IMG/VR virus record: IMGVR_UViG_3300020041_000017
Span: 1 to 5,961 of that record
Length of the DNA: 5,961 nucleotides
From: a virus
Strand: one strand, 5' to 3'
In this document: positions 1 to 5,961 of the stretch, piece by piece
Numbering within the stretch: position 1 is the first letter of the stretch
Layout of the letters: every line of letters starts with the position of its first letter
Position numbers and translations under genes: made by a program
Notes under the pieces: generated by a model
Told to the model about the DNA's origin: nothing
The model's input: only the letters and a program-made list of their open reading frames with translations
Databases searched by the model: none

Positions 1-49
1 CAGATACGAATTTTCGCGTATAACGGCGATGTTGGAGGAGGCAAGATAA
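1..49. repeat. Left copy of the 49-nt terminal direct repeat, which is an assembly overlap of a circular genome
   Basis: CAGATACGAATTTTCGCGTATAACGGCGATGTTGGAGGAGGCAAGATAA at 1-49 is identical to 5913-5961. Confidence 0.97.
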
Positions 50-664
50 AGGTGTAAGTTTTCCATCTACAGTAACATATTTATCCGAAATTTCTTCGGG
101 ATTAAACTCAATTTGTTTAGTAACATACTTGACACAATATCGAGCACGCTTGTGGGTAGCTTTCGATAACCAGACAAAGCCGAGGTCTCGAACGGCGGCG
201 CGAATAGTATTATAGAGAACATTTGTGCCAAACAAAAAGCCGTGAAAGTGCAAGCGAGGTTCATTTCCCATCTCTGGATGTGTGCCAAACTCCTGGAAAA
301 AAGCGTGCTTAAACGAATGGCCGAGCTTATGACGCAAACGCTCATTGAAACGGCGGATGAATCGAGAAGGATCGAGCAACGCCTCATTGTAATATCTCGG
401 GGCAATCGTTATTGTGACAAAAATAGCCTGCTGATTATCAGCCTTGCAACGAGAAAGCTCGCGCTCTAAACGCACGAACCAGTCATTACGCTGACGACGC
501 AGACAGTCTTCACACTTGCCGCACGGAACCATCAGCCATTGGCGCGCCACATCCCAAGGTCGAAAAGCCAAGGCAGACTTAGCGACGTCAGAACCATCAC
601 GACAAGGGTTCTTCTTATCGAAATAGCGCCGATTGCGTATCCATATGGGAGATGAACAGGGCAT
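1..664 (-). CDS. VP4: Replication initiation protein (rolling-circle HUH endonuclease, Microviridae VP4 / phiX A-like), N-terminal 221 codons plus the first base of codon 222. It continues at 5912.
   Basis: I translated the minus strand by hand in the frame with codon first bases at 664, 661 ... 1. The ATG is at 664-662, preceded by an in-frame TAA at 679-677. The translation reads MPCSSPIWIRNRRYFDKKNPC...LMVPCGKCEDCLRRQRNDWF, with the PCGKCEDC segment at 526-503. It continues with AIFVTITIAP, PRLHFHGFLFG (H-F-H at 250-242) and ARYCVKYVTKQ (Y-x-x-K-Y-V-x-K at 139-116). There is no stop before base 1. These are the hallmark motifs of Microviridae initiators, and the phiX174 A active site is Y-V-A-K-Y-V-N-K. 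The ORF is absent from the track because it has no in-window stop. Confidence 0.93.
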   Translation of the reverse strand, partial: MPCSSPIWIRNRRYFDKKNPCRDGSDVAKSALAFRPWDVARQWLMVPCGKCEDCLRRQRNDWFVRLERELSRCKADNQQAIFVTITIAPRYYNEALLDPSRFIRRFNERLRHKLGHSFKHAFFQEFGTHPEMGNEPRLHFHGFLFGTNVLYNTIRAAVRDLGFVWLSKATHKRARYCVKYVTKQIEFNPEEISDKYVTVDGKLTPLSCLLQHRRYTRKFVS

Positions 665-864
665 TAGAAAAGACTCTTAAGGCAATCAAACTTAATATAA
701 GGGTTAGTGCGACGACAGCGGTCAAGATAATCGTTCGCGGGAGCCTCGTCGATAAACCAAGCAACAACAACTCGCCTTCGGCCACGATACGCGCCAACCG
801 AATAGCGATGAGGTGCACTATTAATAACGGGAGAGTACCTAGGTCTGAAATCGAAATGATCCAT
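664..864 (-). CDS. Hypothetical Arg-rich 66-aa protein, translationally coupled to Rep. It is a possible DNA-binding or packaging protein.
   Basis: The product is MDHFDFRPRYSPVINSAPHRYSVGAYRGRRRVVVAWFIDEAPANDYLDRCRRTNPYIKFDCLKSLF, with 10 Arg and 2 Lys against 7 acidic residues. T dominates the codon third positions, as in VP1. Its TAA (666-664) overlaps the Rep ATG (664-662) as TAATG. The competing 116-aa ORF (615-965) is its +1-frame hydrophobic shadow. Confidence 0.62.
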   Translation of the reverse strand: MDHFDFRPRYSPVINSAPHRYSVGAYRGRRRVVVAWFIDEAPANDYLDRCRRTNPYIKFDCLKSLF

Positions 865-894: not shown

Positions 895-939
895 GCAAAT
901 AAAAGCGAACCCTCAGGGGAAGCATATCCCCTGGGGTTC
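895..939 (-). terminator. GC-rich stem-loop followed by a T-tract. It is an intrinsic-terminator-like element, or alternatively an ssDNA origin or structural hairpin.
   Basis: The plus strand reads GAACCC(T)CAGGGGA-agcata-TCCCCTGGGGTTC at 907-939. That is 13 bp (9 G:C), one bulged base (913) and a 6-nt loop. On the coding strand the stem is followed by GCTTTTATTTGCC (906-894). It lies in the 118-nt gap between ORF107 and ORF66. Confidence 0.6.
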
Positions 940-982
940 AACGAGTTAAAGAACTCTTCCACCAAGCGGGCGGGTCACCACT

Positions 983-1306
983 TTAGTGCCCTTTCCCTTC
1001 TTCTTTCGACGTGCTTTCATCGTGAGTCAAATCAGCATTAAACATAAGGACTAGTGTATTGTCGAAGAAATCAATCGAAAAATCAGGATACGCGATCAAA
1101 GCCTCTACGAGACTGGGGATATGACCGTGGTCAATATAGGGCGAAACTGAAATAGTAGAATGTTCTACATAGTCAGAGATGGGAGTGCGTGCAAGAGCAT
1201 CAAGATGAAGTGCTTCAAACTGACCATCTTTGATGTAGCCTACCTGTACAAAATCAACCTTGAGAGCCGGATTGACGCGACGAATAACAACATGAACATG
1301 TGTCAT
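983..1306 (-). CDS. Hypothetical acidic, His-rich 107-aa protein
   Basis: The ORF starts 21 nt after the ORF102 stop, has T-ending codon bias, and has the conserved TTTAAATT-NN-ACTACT-ATG start context. It has about 16 D/E, 7 K/R and 8 His. I recognise no family. Confidence 0.75.
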   Translation of the reverse strand: MTHVHVVIRRVNPALKVDFVQVGYIKDGQFEALHLDALARTPISDYVEHSTISVSPYIDHGHIPSLVEALIAYPDFSIDFFDNTLVLMFNADLTHDESTSKEEGKGH

Positions 1307-1327
1307 AGTAGTGTAATTTAAATGTTT

Positions 1328-1636
1328 TTAGAAAAAGCTAGCGTAAAAACGCGCCCAAGCCTCAGAGTGCTTGATCCAAAATTTGCAACCCTCGGGAGTC
1401 GAGGTAAACAAGAAAGCAGAAGAGATGAGAGAGGCGGGGCTGAGGCTAGAATGACCAAGAAGGTATTGGATTTGCTCGCGCAAACAGTCTCGGAAGGGTT
1501 TTGAGGACCCGAAGGCACGATCATAATTCGCCCGAAAAGCGGGATACACCTTTCGACGAATAAGCCACTCGACGAACATATAATCTATGACGTCGACCAG
1601 CAATTTAGCATCTTTAGAGCTTTTGTTCTTTTTCAT
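1328..1636 (-). CDS. Hypothetical basic 102-aa protein
   Basis: The ORF has T-ending codon bias and lies 26 nt downstream of the TATATTTG promoter element. It has a Lys-rich N-terminus (MKKNKSSKDAK) and about 16 K/R against 9 D/E. The C-terminal FLFTSTPEGCKFWIKHSEAW is a T-P-E-G-x-x-F-W type motif. I believe this recurs in small phage and Bacteroidota hypothetical proteins, but I cannot verify that here. Confidence 0.75.
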   Translation of the reverse strand: MKKNKSSKDAKLLVDVIDYMFVEWLIRRKVYPAFRANYDRAFGSSKPFRDCLREQIQYLLGHSSLSPASLISSAFLFTSTPEGCKFWIKHSEAWARFYASFF

Positions 1637-1662
1637 AAGAATACGGTTATTGGTTTACACTG

Positions 1663-1693
1663 CAAATATAACAACGAAAATCTAAAATGCAAA
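1663..1693 (-). promoter_or_regulatory. Bacteroides/Bacteroidota-type promoter with -33 TTTG and -7 TAnnTTTG
   Basis: The minus strand reads TTTG (1693-1690), then 19 nt, then TATATTTG (1670-1663), then 26 nt, then the ATG of ORF102 (1636). It matches the published Bacteroides consensus TTTG-N19-21-TAnnTTTG exactly and sits in a 72-nt intergenic spacer. Confidence 0.65.
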
Positions 1694-3077: not shown

Positions 3078-3269
3078 CTACATGTGAGTTAAGTTGTTAG
3101 AACGAATAATGTAATCGACACGCACAGTGTCAATATGAACGCCACTACGCTGCATTCTGGCCTGAGCTGAACAAGAGGCGAGAAAAAAAGCAGCTAAAGC
3201 AGCAACGATAGAAGAGATAAGCGTCCAAAACGCCTTCGACTTATAGAACGGTTGTTTAGTATCAGACAT
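3078..3269 (-). CDS. Small predicted lipoprotein, 63-aa precursor. It has a signal peptide with lipobox L-A-S-C (Cys33) and a 31-aa mature peptide.
   Basis: From the ATG at 3269 the product is MSDTKQPFYKSKAFW-TLISSIVAALAAFFLAS-C-SAQARMQRSGVHIDTVRVDYIIRSNNLTHM. This gives a Lys-containing n-region, a 17-residue hydrophobic core, and LASC at 3182-3171 matching [LVI][ASTVI][GAS]C. The TAG stop at 3080-3078 lies 1 nt before the VP2 ATG. I prefer the 3269 start to the upstream ATG at 3380 (100-aa form). The 3269 ATG carries the same TTTAAATT-NN-ACTACT-ATG context as ORF107. Confidence 0.7.
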   Translation of the reverse strand: MSDTKQPFYKSKAFWTLISSIVAALAAFFLASCSAQARMQRSGVHIDTVRVDYIIRSNNLTHM

Positions 3270-3402
3270 AGTAGTAGAATTTAAAGAACGATAGAAAAAT
3301 GCGCGGCCTCTCCTGCAGTCGTTACCAATAACCTTCAGCAATTCACGAACTCTTGCAAAAGGGGTCCGCGCACGTAGCATATATCGTCAAGTAAAGAATA
3401 CG

Positions 3403-3699
3403 CTATTTTTCTTCAGAATCGGCAAATTTAGAAGTAAGCTTCGATCTATCCAGCTCTGAATCAATAAGCTCCTGACCAACCTCAAGACCGTCAAACTTGT
3501 CCATACGAGAGAAGGAGTTAGGGTCGAAGTCGATTTCAGGATTGTAACTCTCGCCCTTATCAAAATCAGAAGGCTCTGCCGTCACGTCTGGACGGCCAGG
3601 AAGAATGTCAACAGATCCGGAACCATTAAGAACGGAGAGAATGCGTTGACCGCGAGAGACATAAGCGGGAGCGTCTTCAAGTAACCAATCAAGTGCCAT
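3403..3699 (-). CDS. Hypothetical highly acidic 98-aa protein. It is a possible internal scaffolding protein (VP3-like role), and that function is not established.
   Basis: The ORF starts 12 nt after the VP1 stop on the same strand and has T-ending codon bias. By my count it has about 22 D/E against 10 K/R. Its position beside the capsid gene fits a morphogenetic accessory protein. I recognise no family motif. Confidence 0.72.
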   Translation of the reverse strand: MALDWLLEDAPAYVSRGQRILSVLNGSGSVDILPGRPDVTAEPSDFDKGESYNPEIDFDPNSFSRMDKFDGLEVGQELIDSELDRSKLTSKFADSEEK

Positions 3700-3711
3700 A
3701 GGATTAATACA

Positions 3712-5502
3712 TTAGCGATTAGACAAACGGGTTGCAAACGTTTTATTAACCAAATTCTTCTTCTGAACGGAATACGAGAGATTAATAAAGAAATTATCTT
3801 CCTTCTTGGAGGCGAATGGCGAATTTACCTGATCGATGTCTACAAACAGAAGGGAATAGTACTGATTATAGCTCGCCGACAAAACGCGCTGCTGAACCCA
3901 ATAGGAATAGAGGGGTATAGCGTCAGCAGCGCCCTGGAACCGAGACAACTGACCGAGGACCTCATCGTAGGAAGATCGAAACTCGTTAAAGCAAGGCTCA
4001 TAGGCCACAGTTTCCGTAGAAGACGTAGTTCCGAAACCAAATTGAAATCCAGGAACATCCTGATATCCAATATCATTATAAATCGGATTGAAATAGTCAG
4101 AGCCGGTGTAATGAAGATAATCAGGGTAAATACCAGCCCAATAGTAGACAGGACGAATACTCAACATGTCAATCATATAGCCGGGCTCGCGAAAATAATA
4201 AGATTGACGACGACCAAGACGCTCGTTAAAAGCGATAGTACCGCCCTGCTGGCCGAGAGGACCATTGACGCTCGGACCGCTGAAATTATTTTGCCCCGCT
4301 TGATTCATAACAATCTGCACATTAACAGTCTGTGAAGCGCTAAAAAGCAGCTTAGGCCTATCAACGTGATCAATCTTCGACGCAAAAAAAGTTTCCAACC
4401 AATCACTATAACGGGAACCTCCAGCGCCAAGCAAGTCTTTATATTCTTGAAGCCGCGAAGCGATAGCCAACTGTGGTATAGTAGAAACGCCAGACATGGA
4501 AACACCTTCAGAGCTACCAACGGGAAGCAGACGACTATAACGGTCAGGGTTCGAAGGTATAACAGCCATCGGATGAGATACGAGGAATGCGCCAAGCGTA
4601 GTAACAGTTGTAGTACTAGGGCCAGTAGCAAACTGATTCGCGGGACCCGCAGCGGTCAGCGAGGTACTTCCAGGGTAAACAGTAGAAACTGGGTAACCAT
4701 TCTTAGAAGCGGTAATCGTAGCGCCAAGGTCTGAAAGCAATATCTGAGAAAAAAGGTTTCCTCTATTGTACGTATTGTTCGACGACGACACAGCCGAAGG
4801 ATAGAATTGGCTCTCAAAATAAGCATCCAAAAATTCAAGATTTCCGAATCTTTGCGAAAAGAACGTCTGGTTTTCACTGAACTGAAGAACATTATACGCG
4901 GCGCCAGTGCTGTTGGGAATGAAATACCAACTACCAGGCCAAGCGAAAGAGTAGAGACCCCACTGAGAGTAACCATAGTAATTACGAACGATATCCCAAT
5001 AAGCGAGATAAGAGTCGGCGGTGCACCAACCTAAAGGGTATCCCAATTGAGCGGTCGAAAGGTTGGCCGACATAGGGACATTGCTAGAAGTCGTCGATGG
5101 GATAGAAGCCGGAAGAACACGCAACCAACGGAGCAATGAATTGGAATAAGGATAATTGTTGGTAGTGAACGGATAGGATGCGGTCGACGAGGCGGCGATG
5201 AAATTCAAGCTCAAATCGTTCATATCAAACTTACTGCTGTTCGTTCTCATCTCAGGGTGATACAACTGAAGCGGTACCCAAAAACGATGAAGTCGGACGG
5301 TGTAAGGGTTGAACGTCGGGACAGCGAGAGGGTTACTGCGAACATCAATGCCTTGCTCAATAGACACACGATCTCGAGCATTAATAAAATCGATCCGCAC
5401 TGGGTACAAAATGCCCGGCGTGCATGTAAAGGCCTTACTCTCAGGAACATCGTAGCGAGAGTAGCCGTTTACAACATGTGAGATAAAAGGTTGTTTTCCC
5501 AT
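3712..5502 (-). CDS. VP1: Major capsid protein (Microviridae F/VP1 family), 596 aa
   Basis: This is the longest ORF. The N-terminal block FTCTPGILYPVRIDF...VRLHRFWVPLQLY and the central block GAGGSRYSDWLETFFASKIDHVDRPKLL correspond to conserved VP1 blocks. Gokushovirus VP1 has G-x-RY-x-E...F-G-V...RLQRPE, which I cite from memory. The codon third position is strongly T-biased. The ATG is 3 nt downstream of the Rep stop. Confidence 0.95.
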   Translation of the reverse strand: MGKQPFISHVVNGYSRYDVPESKAFTCTPGILYPVRIDFINARDRVSIEQGIDVRSNPLAVPTFNPYTVRLHRFWVPLQLYHPEMRTNSSKFDMNDLSLNFIAASSTASYPFTTNNYPYSNSLLRWLRVLPASIPSTTSSNVPMSANLSTAQLGYPLGWCTADSYLAYWDIVRNYYGYSQWGLYSFAWPGSWYFIPNSTGAAYNVLQFSENQTFFSQRFGNLEFLDAYFESQFYPSAVSSSNNTYNRGNLFSQILLSDLGATITASKNGYPVSTVYPGSTSLTAAGPANQFATGPSTTTVTTLGAFLVSHPMAVIPSNPDRYSRLLPVGSSEGVSMSGVSTIPQLAIASRLQEYKDLLGAGGSRYSDWLETFFASKIDHVDRPKLLFSASQTVNVQIVMNQAGQNNFSGPSVNGPLGQQGGTIAFNERLGRRQSYYFREPGYMIDMLSIRPVYYWAGIYPDYLHYTGSDYFNPIYNDIGYQDVPGFQFGFGTTSSTETVAYEPCFNEFRSSYDEVLGQLSRFQGAADAIPLYSYWVQQRVLSASYNQYYSLLFVDIDQVNSPFASKKEDNFFINLSYSVQKKNLVNKTFATRLSNR

Positions 5503-5912: not shown

Positions 5913-5961
5913 CAGATACGAATTTTCGCGTATAACGGCGATGTTGGAGGAGGCAAGATAA
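5913..5961. repeat. Right copy of the 49-nt terminal direct repeat, redundant with 1-49
   Basis: Base-for-base identity with 1-49, read directly from the sequence. Confidence 0.97.

What the first reader, a model, noticed from the sequence alone, without database searches (positions are those of the whole stretch)
895..1693. Promoter-to-hairpin two-gene accessory cassette (basic ORF102 plus acidic His-rich ORF107) between VP2 and Rep
The only full bipartite Bacteroides-type promoter I can find (1693-1663) sits immediately upstream of ORF102. ORF107 follows after 21 nt. The strongest hairpin plus T-tract in the genome (939-895) follows ORF107 after 43 nt. The two unknown genes therefore look like a self-contained transcription unit inserted between the pilot gene and the replication module. 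Small phages tend to carry host-interaction cargo in such positions. The products have opposite charge, roughly +7 and -9 net, which would suit an interacting pair. ORF102 ends in FTSTPEGCKFWIKHSEAW, a T-P-E-G-x-x-F-W-like motif that I recall from other small phage proteins of unknown role. ORF107 has 8 His in 107 residues, including MTHVHV, HGH and a C-terminal GKGH. Neither resembles VP3, VP5 or VP8 as far as I can tell.
Basis: inference. Interest (0 to 1): 0.66.

Follow-up and report, generated by a model that had tools for sequence, protein, structure and literature searches.

The report
Conserved promoter-proximal two-gene unit of microvirus
In this small circular single-stranded-DNA gut phage, two fast-evolving genes of unknown function lie between a conserved Bacteroides-type promoter and a conserved terminator hairpin; about 90 related phages share this layout, so it is a fixed part of the lineage and not inserted cargo.

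Summary
On the minus strand there is a TTTG-N19-TATATTTG promoter motif (1693-1663). ORF102 (1636-1328) follows, then ORF107 (1306-983) after 21 nt. After another 43 nt comes the most stable hairpin of the genome (939-907, dG -23.9) with a T-tract.

The window is a complete 5912-nt circular microvirus. In about 90 related genomes the same two genes, the -7 box and a covarying hairpin plus T-run sit at the same positions, so this is ancestral to the clade, not a variable insert. These are also the only two sizeable non-coding regions in the genome. The promoter is therefore probably the main promoter, and the hairpin a leaky terminator that yields a short ORF102-ORF107 mRNA.

Both genes are under purifying selection (dN/dS about 0.3) but evolve about three times faster than Rep.

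ORF102 folds as a five-helix protein. It belongs to a wide phage small-domain family absent from Pfam and NCBIfam (FxWxxTPEGxxFW), also found in what look like tailed-phage small-gene arrays. It is missing from a few relatives.

ORF107 is an acidic alpha/beta protein seen only on microvirus-sized contigs and present in every relative. It has no known structural neighbour.

Function remains unknown. The His-richness is not conserved, and the two proteins are not an obligate pair.

The parts
1663..1693 (-). Sigma-ABfr-type promoter: -33 TTTG (1693-1690), 19-nt spacer, -7 TATATTTG (1670-1663)
   Evidence: It is the only full match in the window. The -7 box is present after VP2 in 75 of 82 related loci, and 50 of those read TATATTTG. 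The full bipartite motif is in 43, 37 of them with a 19-nt spacer. The box is kept in L004 and L007, which lack ORF102. The consensus is taken from PMC7366714.
1637..1662 (-). Predicted 5' leader without a Shine-Dalgarno sequence, holding the conserved block GTAAACCAATAAC (1658-1646)
   Evidence: The block is present in 67 of 82 loci. No Shine-Dalgarno-like sequence precedes any gene. The leader is 26 nt from the -7 box to the ATG, so about 20 nt if transcription starts a few bases after the box; that is close to the 23-nt modal Bacteroides 5' UTR. The start site itself is inferred, not mapped.
1328..1636 (-). ORF102: basic (+7) protein with five predicted helices and the C-terminal signature SAFLFTSTPEGCKFW...W
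   Evidence: It has 154 homologue clusters and dN/dS 0.29. The AlphaFold2 model has pLDDT 90.9 and no PDB neighbour. hhalign against distant small phage proteins gives 99.6% probability. The gene is absent in L004 and L007.
983..1306 (-). ORF107: acidic (-9) alpha/beta protein with a conserved N-terminus and a conserved disordered tail (SKEEGKG)
   Evidence: It has 575 to 939 homologue clusters, nearly all with longest contigs of about 6 kb or less, and dN/dS 0.30. The AlphaFold2 model has pLDDT 89.3. There is no significant PDB neighbour. BFVD returns only uncharacterized microvirus proteins. No member matches any PHROG.
945..975 (-). Conserved non-coding block ACCCGCCCGCTTGGTGGAAGAGTTCTTTAAC between the ORF107 stop and the hairpin
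   Evidence: The sequence is conserved across relatives, including L006 and L012, which lack the hairpin. Its function is unknown.
907..939 (-). Terminator-like hairpin: 13 bp with one bulge and a hexaloop
   Evidence: dG is -23.9, the strongest on the coding strand. A hairpin sits at the same offset in about 82 of 85 loci. There are 53 distinct sequences, all with dG between -17.5 and -25.4. There are 19 different inner helices: a genome's own arms pair at 7 of 7 positions, while arms swapped between genomes pair at 4.67 of 7 on average. Four of six RNAalifold pairs show compensatory changes.
895..906 (-). T-tract after the hairpin (GCTTTTATTTGC)
   Evidence: Seven of the first 10 bases are T. 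A T-rich tail follows the stem in most relatives.

Best explanation
This is the promoter-proximal transcription unit of a complete 5912-nt circular microvirus. The virus probably infects a member of the Bacteroidota, but that is an inference from the promoter type and the lack of Shine-Dalgarno sequences.

A sigma-ABfr-type promoter at 1693-1663 most likely starts transcription about 20 nt upstream of ORF102. ORF102 and ORF107 are translated from this mRNA. The GC-rich hairpin plus T-tract at 939-895 then stops a fraction of transcripts.

All genes face the same way. The two regions that flank the pair are the only non-coding stretches longer than 22 nt, and no second strict promoter is conserved. 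The promoter is therefore most likely the main promoter of the whole genome, and the hairpin a leaky terminator or attenuator. That arrangement would give a short, abundant ORF102-ORF107 transcript and less read-through into ORF66, Rep, VP1, ORF98, ORF100 and VP2. It is formally like the nested transcripts of phiX174.

Shown here: the anatomy, its conservation, stem covariation, purifying selection on both genes and their family relationships.

Inferred: initiation, termination, leakiness and relative expression.

The unit is ancestral to the clade, not an insert. ORF102 is a basic five-helix member of a broad small-domain family absent from Pfam and NCBIfam (FxWxxTPEGxxFW...W). Relatives of that family sit in arrays of tiny co-directional genes that look like tailed-phage early or accessory blocks. 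ORF102 can be lost, so I infer it is a host-directed accessory factor. ORF107 is an acidic protein seen only in microvirus-type contexts and present in every relative, with a conserved disordered tail. I infer it is a lineage-specific non-structural protein needed in every infection, in replication or packaging control or in host interaction. The biochemical activities of both proteins remain unknown.
For: Genome: there is a 49-nt terminal repeat, Rep spans the junction, and all genes are on one strand. VP1, VP2 and Rep match the PHROG families for major head protein, pilot protein and replication initiation protein.

Promoter: it is the only full match in the window. The -7 box is conserved in 75 of 82 loci, and it is kept in genomes without ORF102.

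Terminator: it is the strongest hairpin on the coding strand and has a T-tail. Its position is conserved while the stem sequence varies.

Genome layout: only two sizeable intergenic regions exist, and there is no strict second promoter upstream of ORF66.

Synteny and presence of both genes.

Selection: dN/dS is 0.29 for ORF102 and 0.30 for ORF107, against 0.11 for Rep and 0.08 for ORF98.

ORF102 family: with genomic context.

ORF107 family.

Literature: the sigma-ABfr consensus, the 23-nt modal UTR and the absence of Shine-Dalgarno sequences come from PMC7366714.
Against: No transcript data exist, so initiation and termination are inferred from motifs and conservation only.

The promoter motif alone is not statistically significant in one genome (44 of 200 shuffles reach it).

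The -33 element is at the right spacing in only 43 of 82 relatives.

The T-tract is interrupted (GCTTTTATTT), and the generic scanner did not call this terminator.

In many relatives the loop holds nested mini-hairpins typical of ssDNA priming sites, which points to a DNA-level role.

L006 and L012 have no hairpin at all.

A T-rich box resembling a weak -7 element lies about 12 nt before the ORF66 ATG in 46 of 70 loci. Non-consensus promoters for the remaining genes therefore cannot be excluded.

The protein functions rest on context alone. No homologue with a known function was found.
Confidence: 0.6

Rival explanations
1. The hairpin region is mainly a DNA element of the packaged single strand, which has the same sense as the mRNA. 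It would serve as the origin or priming signal for complementary-strand synthesis and would not be a transcription terminator. The ORF102-ORF107 boundary would then be set by replication needs, not by transcription.
For: In about 12 relatives the loop is expanded into a three-way junction holding CCGAAGG and GCGAAGC mini-hairpins. Many others carry an extra structured module of 100-130 nt, with GACGCGNAGCGTC hairpins, just after it. Such mini-hairpins mark ssDNA priming sites in phage G4 and in RSF1010 ssiA (PMC13037366). A microvirus must have such a site, and this is one of only two non-coding regions in the genome.
Against: The window itself has a plain hexaloop and none of the mini-hairpins. 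The feature conserved across nearly all genomes is a GC-rich stem followed directly by a T-run, which is specific to intrinsic terminators. The two roles do not exclude each other.
Confidence: 0.3
2. One reading: a self-contained host-interaction or anti-defence cassette encoding a basic and an acidic protein that act as an interacting pair.
For: ORF102 and ORF107, together with VP2, are the least constrained genes (dN/dS about 0.3; identity of 33-44% and 27-55% to the 12 GenBank relatives where Rep keeps 65-83%). ORF102 is dispensable in some lineages. Its domain family also occurs in arrays of small accessory-type genes that look like tailed-phage blocks. The opposite charges are conserved. 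Pairwise identities of the two genes correlate moderately (rho 0.52). The VP2-VP4 interval is a known insertion site for accessory genes in Alpavirinae (PMC3394797).
Against: The pair is fixed at one site in roughly 90 relatives, so it is not variable cargo. ORF107 exists without ORF102 in L004, L007 and L095. Recombinants uncouple the two genes. There are no PADLOC hits and no homologue with a known function. The heterodimer could not be modelled here.
Confidence: 0.2
3. ORF107, and possibly ORF102, is an unrecognisably diverged core microvirus protein. It would be the functional equivalent of phiX174 protein C or gokushovirus VP5 (the switch to ssDNA synthesis and packaging), or a scaffolding protein.
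For: ORF107 is present in every relative and sits at the same locus in more distant microviruses. No C/VP5-like gene is otherwise identifiable in this genome. The gene lies next to ORF66 and Rep. A conserved disordered acidic tail is typical of partner-binding peptides; that last point is from my own knowledge.
Against: Pfam, PHROG, NCBIfam and PDB sequence searches give no match, and there is no fold match to any characterised protein. dN/dS is about three times that of Rep or ORF98. ORF98, which is acidic, highly conserved and directly follows VP1, is the better scaffold candidate.
Confidence: 0.25
4. The promoter motif and the hairpin are chance features, and the ORFs are simply part of one long genome transcript.
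For: The bipartite motif occurs by chance in 22% of shuffles. The terminator-like counts for the window do not exceed those of the shuffles (8 found against 6.9 expected).
Against: Both signals are conserved in position across about 80 diverged genomes, while the flanking genes have diverged to 30-55% identity. The stem covaries. It is the most stable hairpin in the genome.
Confidence: 0.05

Closest known systems
phiX174-type transcription organisation: a few promoters and inefficient intrinsic terminators on a unidirectional circular genome, giving nested transcripts
   Same: The genome is small, circular and ssDNA, with all genes on one strand. A hairpin plus T-run lies between gene blocks. 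The likely result is a short abundant mRNA plus read-through.
   Different: The promoter is of the Bacteroidota sigma-ABfr type (TTTG / TAnnTTTG), not the sigma-70 type. Only one consensus promoter and one terminator are detectable. The promoter-proximal genes are two unknown proteins, not D, J, F, G and H. The phiX174 comparison rests on my own knowledge and was not tested here.
Hypothetical proteins annotated between VP2 and VP4 in faecal Microviridae (for example MG945455, MG945813, bajarodmic viruses, Tortoise microvirus 102)
   Same: The two ORFs are direct homologues (33-44% and 27-55% identity), with the same order and the same flanking signals.
   Different: Those records give no function, and the family relationships and regulatory signals are not annotated. 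The window's closest relatives are unannotated metagenome contigs (ORF107 up to 94% identity; the best ORF102 homologue 82%).
PHROG families 16354, 10949, 25460, 20568, 30073 and 38635 (small phage proteins of unknown function with the motif FxWxxTxEGxxFW)
   Same: They share the C-terminal signature and a helical domain of about 75-100 aa. hhalign between the ORF102 family and 30 distant small proteins gives 99.6% probability.
   Different: ORF102 itself reaches these PHROGs only weakly (E = 0.015). The microvirus subgroup is basic and carries an extra N-terminal helix. No member has a known function, and the family is not in Pfam or NCBIfam.
ssDNA priming signals with GCGNAGC or CCGAAGG mini-hairpins (phage G4 complementary-strand origin, RSF1010 ssiA)
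   Same: Relatives carry exactly these mini-hairpins nested in the loop of the homologous hairpin.
   Different: The window's hairpin has a plain TATGCT loop and lacks them.

Membership tests
Bacteroidota sigma-ABfr promoter | -7 element TAnnTTTG | tested here: met
   TATATTTG lies at 1670-1663. The element is conserved in 75 of 82 related loci. The consensus is taken from PMC7366714.
Bacteroidota sigma-ABfr promoter | -33 element TTTG about 19-21 nt upstream of the -7 element | tested here: met
   TTTG lies at 1693-1690 with a 19-nt spacer. It is present at a suitable spacing in 43 of 82 relatives. The literature notes that the -33 element is the weaker of the two.
Bacteroidota sigma-ABfr promoter | A mapped transcription start just downstream of the -7 box | not testable with these tools
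Intrinsic (Rho-independent) terminator | GC-rich stem-loop on the transcribed strand | tested here: met
   The stem has 13 bp, 9 of them G-C, with dG -23.9, the strongest on the coding strand.
Intrinsic (Rho-independent) terminator | U-tract directly 3' of the stem | tested here: met
   The tail GCTTTTATTT has 7 T in 10 bases. It starts 2 nt after the stem and is interrupted by one A. The simple scanner did not report it, probably because the stem has a bulge. T-rich tails follow the stem in most relatives.
Intrinsic (Rho-independent) terminator | Structure conserved through compensatory change | tested here: met
   There are 53 distinct hairpins at the same offset and 19 different inner helices. 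A genome's own arms pair at 7 of 7 positions, and arms swapped between genomes at 4.67 of 7. Four of six RNAalifold pairs show double changes. My anchoring from the loop is fitted to the structure, so it leans towards it.
Intrinsic (Rho-independent) terminator | Transcript 3' ends at the T-tract in vivo | not testable with these tools
   This needs Term-seq or 3' RACE.
Known microvirus small core proteins (the Pfam and PHROG families for phiX174 B, C, D, J, K and E and for gokushovirus VP3, VP5 and VP8) | Sequence match to a family model | tested here: not met
   ORF102 and ORF107 match no Pfam family at E <= 1. They reach only unknown-function PHROGs, above E = 0.01. None of 12 ORF107 homologues matches any PHROG.
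Known microvirus small core proteins (the Pfam and PHROG families for phiX174 B, C, D, J, K and E and for gokushovirus VP3, VP5 and VP8) | Fold match to a characterised microvirus protein | tested here: not met
   ORF107 has no PDB hit at E <= 0.001, and its BFVD hits are only uncharacterized microvirus proteins.
TPEG-FW small phage domain family (PHROGs 16354, 10949, 25460 and others) | C-terminal signature [SA]F.[WF]..T.EG..[FY]W......W | tested here: met
   ORF102 carries SAFLFTSTPEGCKFWIKHSEAW. F75, E82, G83, W87 and W94 are invariant in 120 homologues, and the same columns are conserved in the distant set.
TPEG-FW small phage domain family (PHROGs 16354, 10949, 25460 and others) | Profile-level homology over the whole domain | tested here: met
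   hhalign of A3 against A6 gives 99.6% probability and E = 1.5e-23 over 76 columns. The exhaustive profile search finds single-domain and tandem-repeat members.
Obligate two-protein module (interacting pair or toxin-antitoxin-like) | Strict co-occurrence of the two genes | tested here: not met
   ORF107 occurs without ORF102 in L004, L007 and L095. Recombinants with discordant identities exist.
Obligate two-protein module (interacting pair or toxin-antitoxin-like) | Physical interaction between the two proteins | not testable with these tools
ssDNA priming signal (G4 oric or ssi type) | GCGNAGC or CCGAAGG mini-hairpin in a structured intergenic region of the packaged strand | tested here: not met
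   Both motifs are absent from the window's 118-nt intergenic region. They are present in the homologous hairpin of about 12 relatives.

The most novel reading that the evidence does not exclude
The ORF102 domain (FxWxxTPEGxxFW...W) defines a large protein superfamily, absent from Pfam and NCBIfam, that is shared between ssDNA microviruses and what appear to be tailed dsDNA phages. It occurs as single small proteins and as tandem repeats of three to five copies. In the microvirus it would be the first gene expressed from the main promoter and would act as a host-takeover or anti-defence factor, perhaps together with the acidic ORF107. Gene sharing between microviruses and other phages has been reported as rare (PMC9239249).
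Probability: 0.15. Interest if true: 0.6.

Novelty: new member of a known kind. Interest (0 to 1): 0.33.

Why it matters
Gut microviruses of this group have only three recognisable genes (VP1, VP2 and VP4), and their regulation is essentially unmapped.

This analysis gives a testable transcription map for a whole clade: one conserved sigma-ABfr promoter and one conserved, covarying terminator.

It shows that the two unknown genes are real, fixed in the clade and fast-evolving.

It places ORF102 in a broad phage domain family that is missing from Pfam and NCBIfam, and it shows that the ORF107 family extends to more distant microviruses.

These results make ORF102 and ORF107 the obvious first targets for knock-outs in a synthetic-genome system. 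The biology found is otherwise ordinary for a small phage, and no function was established.

Tried and rejected
Searches that found nothing:
- Pfam, NCBIfam and PADLOC scans of both proteins gave nothing.
- PDB sequence-profile searches gave nothing usable.
- Foldseek against the PDB gave only noise. The best hit for ORF107 was GFRP at E = 0.18 with TM about 0.4. The best for ORF102 had E > 3.
- Rfam had no family for either intergenic region.
- A scan of 185,579 species genomes for prophage copies of ORF107 found none, so the host could not be fixed that way.
- tblastn of a distant TPEG-FW protein against GenBank phages gave a single weak hit.
- The listing of cluster members returned no source names for the distant ORF102-like proteins.

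Ideas tested and dropped:
- ORF102 co-evolves with VP2 and not with ORF107. This was suggested by L016 and rejected: rho is 0.27 with VP2 and 0.52 with ORF107.
- ORF107 is a metal-binding, His-rich protein. Rejected because the His residues are not conserved.
- A second strict promoter lies after the hairpin. Rejected: 2 of 70 loci.

Technical problems:
- P0390 (742 aa) in the profile search is an fn3-repeat false positive.
- The MAFFT alignment of the hairpins was out of structural register, so RNAalifold gave only a weak consensus. I replaced it with a loop-anchored count.
- One dN/dS script timed out and was rewritten.
- One hairpin scan used window lengths that skipped the 33-nt hairpin and was repeated.
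Full report
**What the window is.** The first and last 49 bases of the window are identical, so it is a 5912-nt circle with redundant ends. Every long ORF is on the minus strand. Read on that strand, the gene order is:
- Rep/VP4: 356 aa, from 664 through the junction to 5506
- VP1: 5502-3712
- ORF98: 3699-3403
- ORF100: 3380-3078
- VP2: 3076-1709
- ORF102: 1636-1328
- ORF107: 1306-983
- ORF66: 864-664, whose stop overlaps the Rep ATG

VP1, VP2 and Rep match the PHROG families for major head protein, pilot protein and replication initiation protein. The nearest GenBank records are faecal Microviridae at 70-77% nucleotide identity.

**Checking the observation.**
- TTTGCATTTTAGATTTTCGTTGTTATATTTG at 1693-1663 is the only match to TTTG-N17-23-TAnnTTTG on either strand. 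In a single genome this is not significant: 0.24 matches are expected, and 44 of 200 shuffles give at least one.
- The gap between ORF102 and ORF107 is 21 nt, and the hairpin starts 43 nt after the ORF107 stop.
- The hairpin GAACCCCAGGGGA/TATGCT/TCCCCTGAGGGTTC at 939-907 has dG -23.9 kcal/mol. It is the most stable single hairpin on the coding strand (next best -19.8) and the only top-ranked one followed by a T-rich tail, GCTTTTATTT. The surrounding 111 nt fold with z = -4.4.
- Net charges are +7 and -9, and ORF107 has 8 His.

**Comparative evidence.** I fetched 12 GenBank genomes, a more distant one and 80 IMG/VR loci.
- Gene order is the same in all 12 complete GenBank genomes, and the partial IMG/VR loci agree wherever they reach.
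- Every locus with a complete hit has an ORF107 homologue. All loci with enough upstream sequence also have an ORF102 homologue directly before it, except L004 and L007 (absent) and L047 (truncated).
- A TAnnTTTG box lies in the intergenic region after VP2 in 75 of 82 loci. In 50 of them it reads TATATTTG. The full bipartite motif is present in 43, 37 of them with the same 19-nt spacer. The box is kept in the genomes that lack ORF102, where it precedes ORF107.
- About 70 of 85 loci have a simple GC-rich hairpin of 10-16 bp that begins 41-47 nt after the ORF107 stop, usually followed by a T-run. About 12 more have a branched version at the same place.
- The 53 distinct simple hairpins all have dG between -17.5 and -25.4 and use 19 different inner helices. 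Arms taken from different genomes pair at 4.67 of 7 positions on average, against 7 of 7 for a genome's own arms. RNAalifold on a poorly registered MAFFT alignment still finds double compensatory changes in 4 of 6 pairs.

The signals are therefore selected features and not chance. The unit is ancestral to the clade and was not inserted.

**How the unit probably works.**
- The sigma-ABfr consensus of Bacteroides is TAnnTTTG at -7 and TTTG near -33. The -33 element is the weaker one. The modal 5' UTR is 23 nt, and mRNAs lack Shine-Dalgarno sequences (PMC7366714). The window fits: the leader is 26 nt from the -7 box to the ATG, so about 20 nt if transcription starts a few bases after the box, and no gene has a Shine-Dalgarno-like sequence upstream.
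- The genome has only two non-coding stretches longer than 22 nt: the 72 nt that hold the promoter and the 118 nt that hold the hairpin. All other junctions are -1 to 22 nt.
- All five TAnnTTTG boxes are on the coding strand, but only this one is intergenic and has a -33 partner.
- No strict promoter is conserved between the hairpin and ORF66 (2 of 70 loci). A T-rich box that loosely resembles one lies about 12 nt before the ATG in 46 of 70.

The simplest reading is that 1693-1663 is the main promoter of the whole unidirectional genome and that the hairpin is a leaky terminator. This would give an abundant short ORF102-ORF107 mRNA and less read-through into ORF66, Rep, VP1 and the other genes. 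It resembles the nested transcripts of phiX174, a comparison that rests on my own knowledge. All of this is inferred, because no transcript ends were available.

**A DNA-level role for the hairpin.** Microviruses package the strand that has the sense of the mRNA, so the hairpin also exists in virion DNA.
- In about 12 relatives the loop is replaced by a three-way junction containing CCGAAGG and GCGAAGC. Many others carry an extra structured module of 100-130 nt, with GACGCGNAGCGTC hairpins, just downstream.
- Such mini-hairpins are known at ssDNA priming sites of phage G4 and RSF1010 ssiA (PMC13037366).
- The window has neither feature. The common denominator of the clade is a stem plus a T-run, so I rank termination first. 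A dual role is plausible.
- Two bajarodmic genomes (L006, L012) lack the hairpin altogether.

**The proteins.** Both are real genes under purifying selection: dN/dS is 0.29 for ORF102 and 0.30 for ORF107. They are much less constrained than Rep (0.11), ORF98 (0.08), ORF100 (0.14) and ORF66 (0.17), and similar to VP2 (0.33).

*ORF102:*
- It has 154 homologue clusters at 90% identity, nearly all with longest contigs of about 6 kb or less.
- The AlphaFold2 model is confident (pLDDT 90.9) and has five helices. It has no PDB neighbour.
- An exhaustive profile search finds 113 representatives. Beyond the roughly 105-aa microvirus proteins, these include 70-85-aa single-domain proteins and proteins with three to five tandem copies, all carrying [SA]F.W..T.EG..[FY]W......W.
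- hhalign between the ORF102 family and 30 of the distant proteins gives 99.6% probability, E = 1.5e-23.
- These relatives hit PHROGs 16354, 10949, 25460, 20568, 30073 and 38635, all of unknown function. None hits Pfam or NCBIfam.
- One relative (P0414) sits in a long array of co-directional tiny genes that includes a YopX-domain gene. This is typical of early or accessory regions of tailed phages.

*ORF107:*
- It has 575 clusters with the single sequence as query and 939 with a profile.
- The model is confident (pLDDT 89.3): a compact alpha/beta domain with a disordered tail whose sequence, SKEEGKG, is nevertheless conserved.
- It has no significant PDB neighbour and matches no PHROG.
- In BFVD it matches only uncharacterized microvirus proteins, including distant ones at 19-27% identity.
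- The 101-aa protein at the same locus of Tortoise microvirus 102, which has no ORF102, matches the ORF107 profile at 94% probability. It is also followed by a branched hairpin and a T-rich tail.
- The His residues are not conserved: the family median is 4, and only H5 and H60 are invariant.

**Are they a pair?** The opposite charges are conserved, with family medians of +5 and -8. Pairwise identities of the two genes correlate moderately (rho 0.52), more than ORF102 does with VP2 (0.27). However, ORF107 occurs without ORF102 in three lineages. In a few genome pairs one gene is more than 80% identical while the other is below 50-60% (for example L016 against the window, and L078 against L084), which indicates recombination between them. 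An obligate pair is therefore unlikely. A facultative interaction cannot be excluded and could not be modelled here.

**Comparison with what is known.** The genes are already deposited as "hypothetical protein" in related GenBank records. Roux et al. found that Alpavirinae share only VP1, VP2 and VP4 with other microviruses and that the VP2-VP4 interval can hold acquired genes such as peptidases (PMC3394797). Kirchberger et al. found few accessory genes in microviruses and little exchange with other elements (PMC9239249). Against that background, sharing of the ORF102 domain with what look like tailed phages is mildly unexpected. The rest is ordinary small-phage genome organisation. I did not test which named subfamily the virus belongs to. 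The host phylum is inferred only from the promoter type and the lack of Shine-Dalgarno sequences, and no prophage copy was found in 185,579 species genomes.

**Verdict.** The "self-contained transcription unit" is supported by conservation, but it is better read as the promoter-proximal segment of the genome's main transcript. The "inserted, variable cargo" reading is not supported. The "interacting pair" reading is unproven and is not obligate. Function remains unknown. Novelty is that of a new member of a known kind, and interest is modest.

Noticed in passing
window 1-49 and 5913-5961: The two ends are an identical 49-nt repeat, so the window is a 5912-nt circular genome with redundant ends. 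Because of the redundancy, the true 356-aa Rep ORF (664 through the junction to 5506) appears as fragments in a linear ORF list.
   Followed up: yes
window 3078-3380 (-), ORF100: ORF100 has a transmembrane or signal segment ending in the lipobox-like FFLASC. In L002, L005, L008 and L009 the ORF is split, and the conserved distal 61-63 aa start at the internal Met (MSDTKQ...). It may be a small lipoprotein, possibly related to lysis.
   Followed up: partly
window 664-864 (-), ORF66: This is an Arg-rich 66-aa ORF (net +5) whose stop overlaps the Rep ATG. It is conserved in about 70 related loci (dN/dS 0.17) and has no PHROG or PADLOC match. It is a candidate DNA-binding protein like J or VP8.
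   Followed up: partly
window 945-975 (-): The non-coding block ACCCGCCCGCTTGGTGGAAGAGTTCTTTAAC follows the ORF107 stop and looks better conserved than the flanking genes. A recognisable version remains in L006, L007 and L012, where the hairpin is absent or displaced. Its function is unknown; it could be a protein-binding or origin-related site.
   Followed up: no
window 1646-1658 (-): The block GTAAACCAATAAC in the predicted 5' leader of ORF102 is conserved in 67 of 82 related loci. That is more conservation than a leader would normally need.
   Followed up: no
L001, L002, L004, L008-L011 and others (intergenic region after the ORF107 homologue); L016-L019, L024, L027 and others: Relatives have either a three-way junction with CCGAAGG and GCGAAGC mini-hairpins inside the terminator loop, or an extra structured module of 100-130 nt after the terminator. 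L003 has a 278-nt intergenic region. These are candidate ssDNA priming signals, and the window lacks all of them.
   Followed up: partly
window 418-425, 687-694, 1663-1670, 3423-3430, 5226-5233: All five TAnnTTTG boxes lie on the coding strand and none on the other strand. One of them (694-687) lies inside ORF66, 23 nt before the Rep ATG, and could be a weak internal promoter.
   Followed up: no
L016 compared with the window: The genome is a mosaic. Rep is 92% and ORF107 85% identical to the window, but VP2 is 36% and ORF102 40%. This indicates recombination with a breakpoint between ORF102 and ORF107.
   Followed up: partly
window 3403-3699 (-), ORF98: This is a very acidic (-12) 98-aa protein directly after VP1, and it is the most constrained gene in the genome (dN/dS 0.08). 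It has no family match. The literature suggests that a VP3-like scaffold is encoded at this position in Alpavirinae.
   Followed up: no
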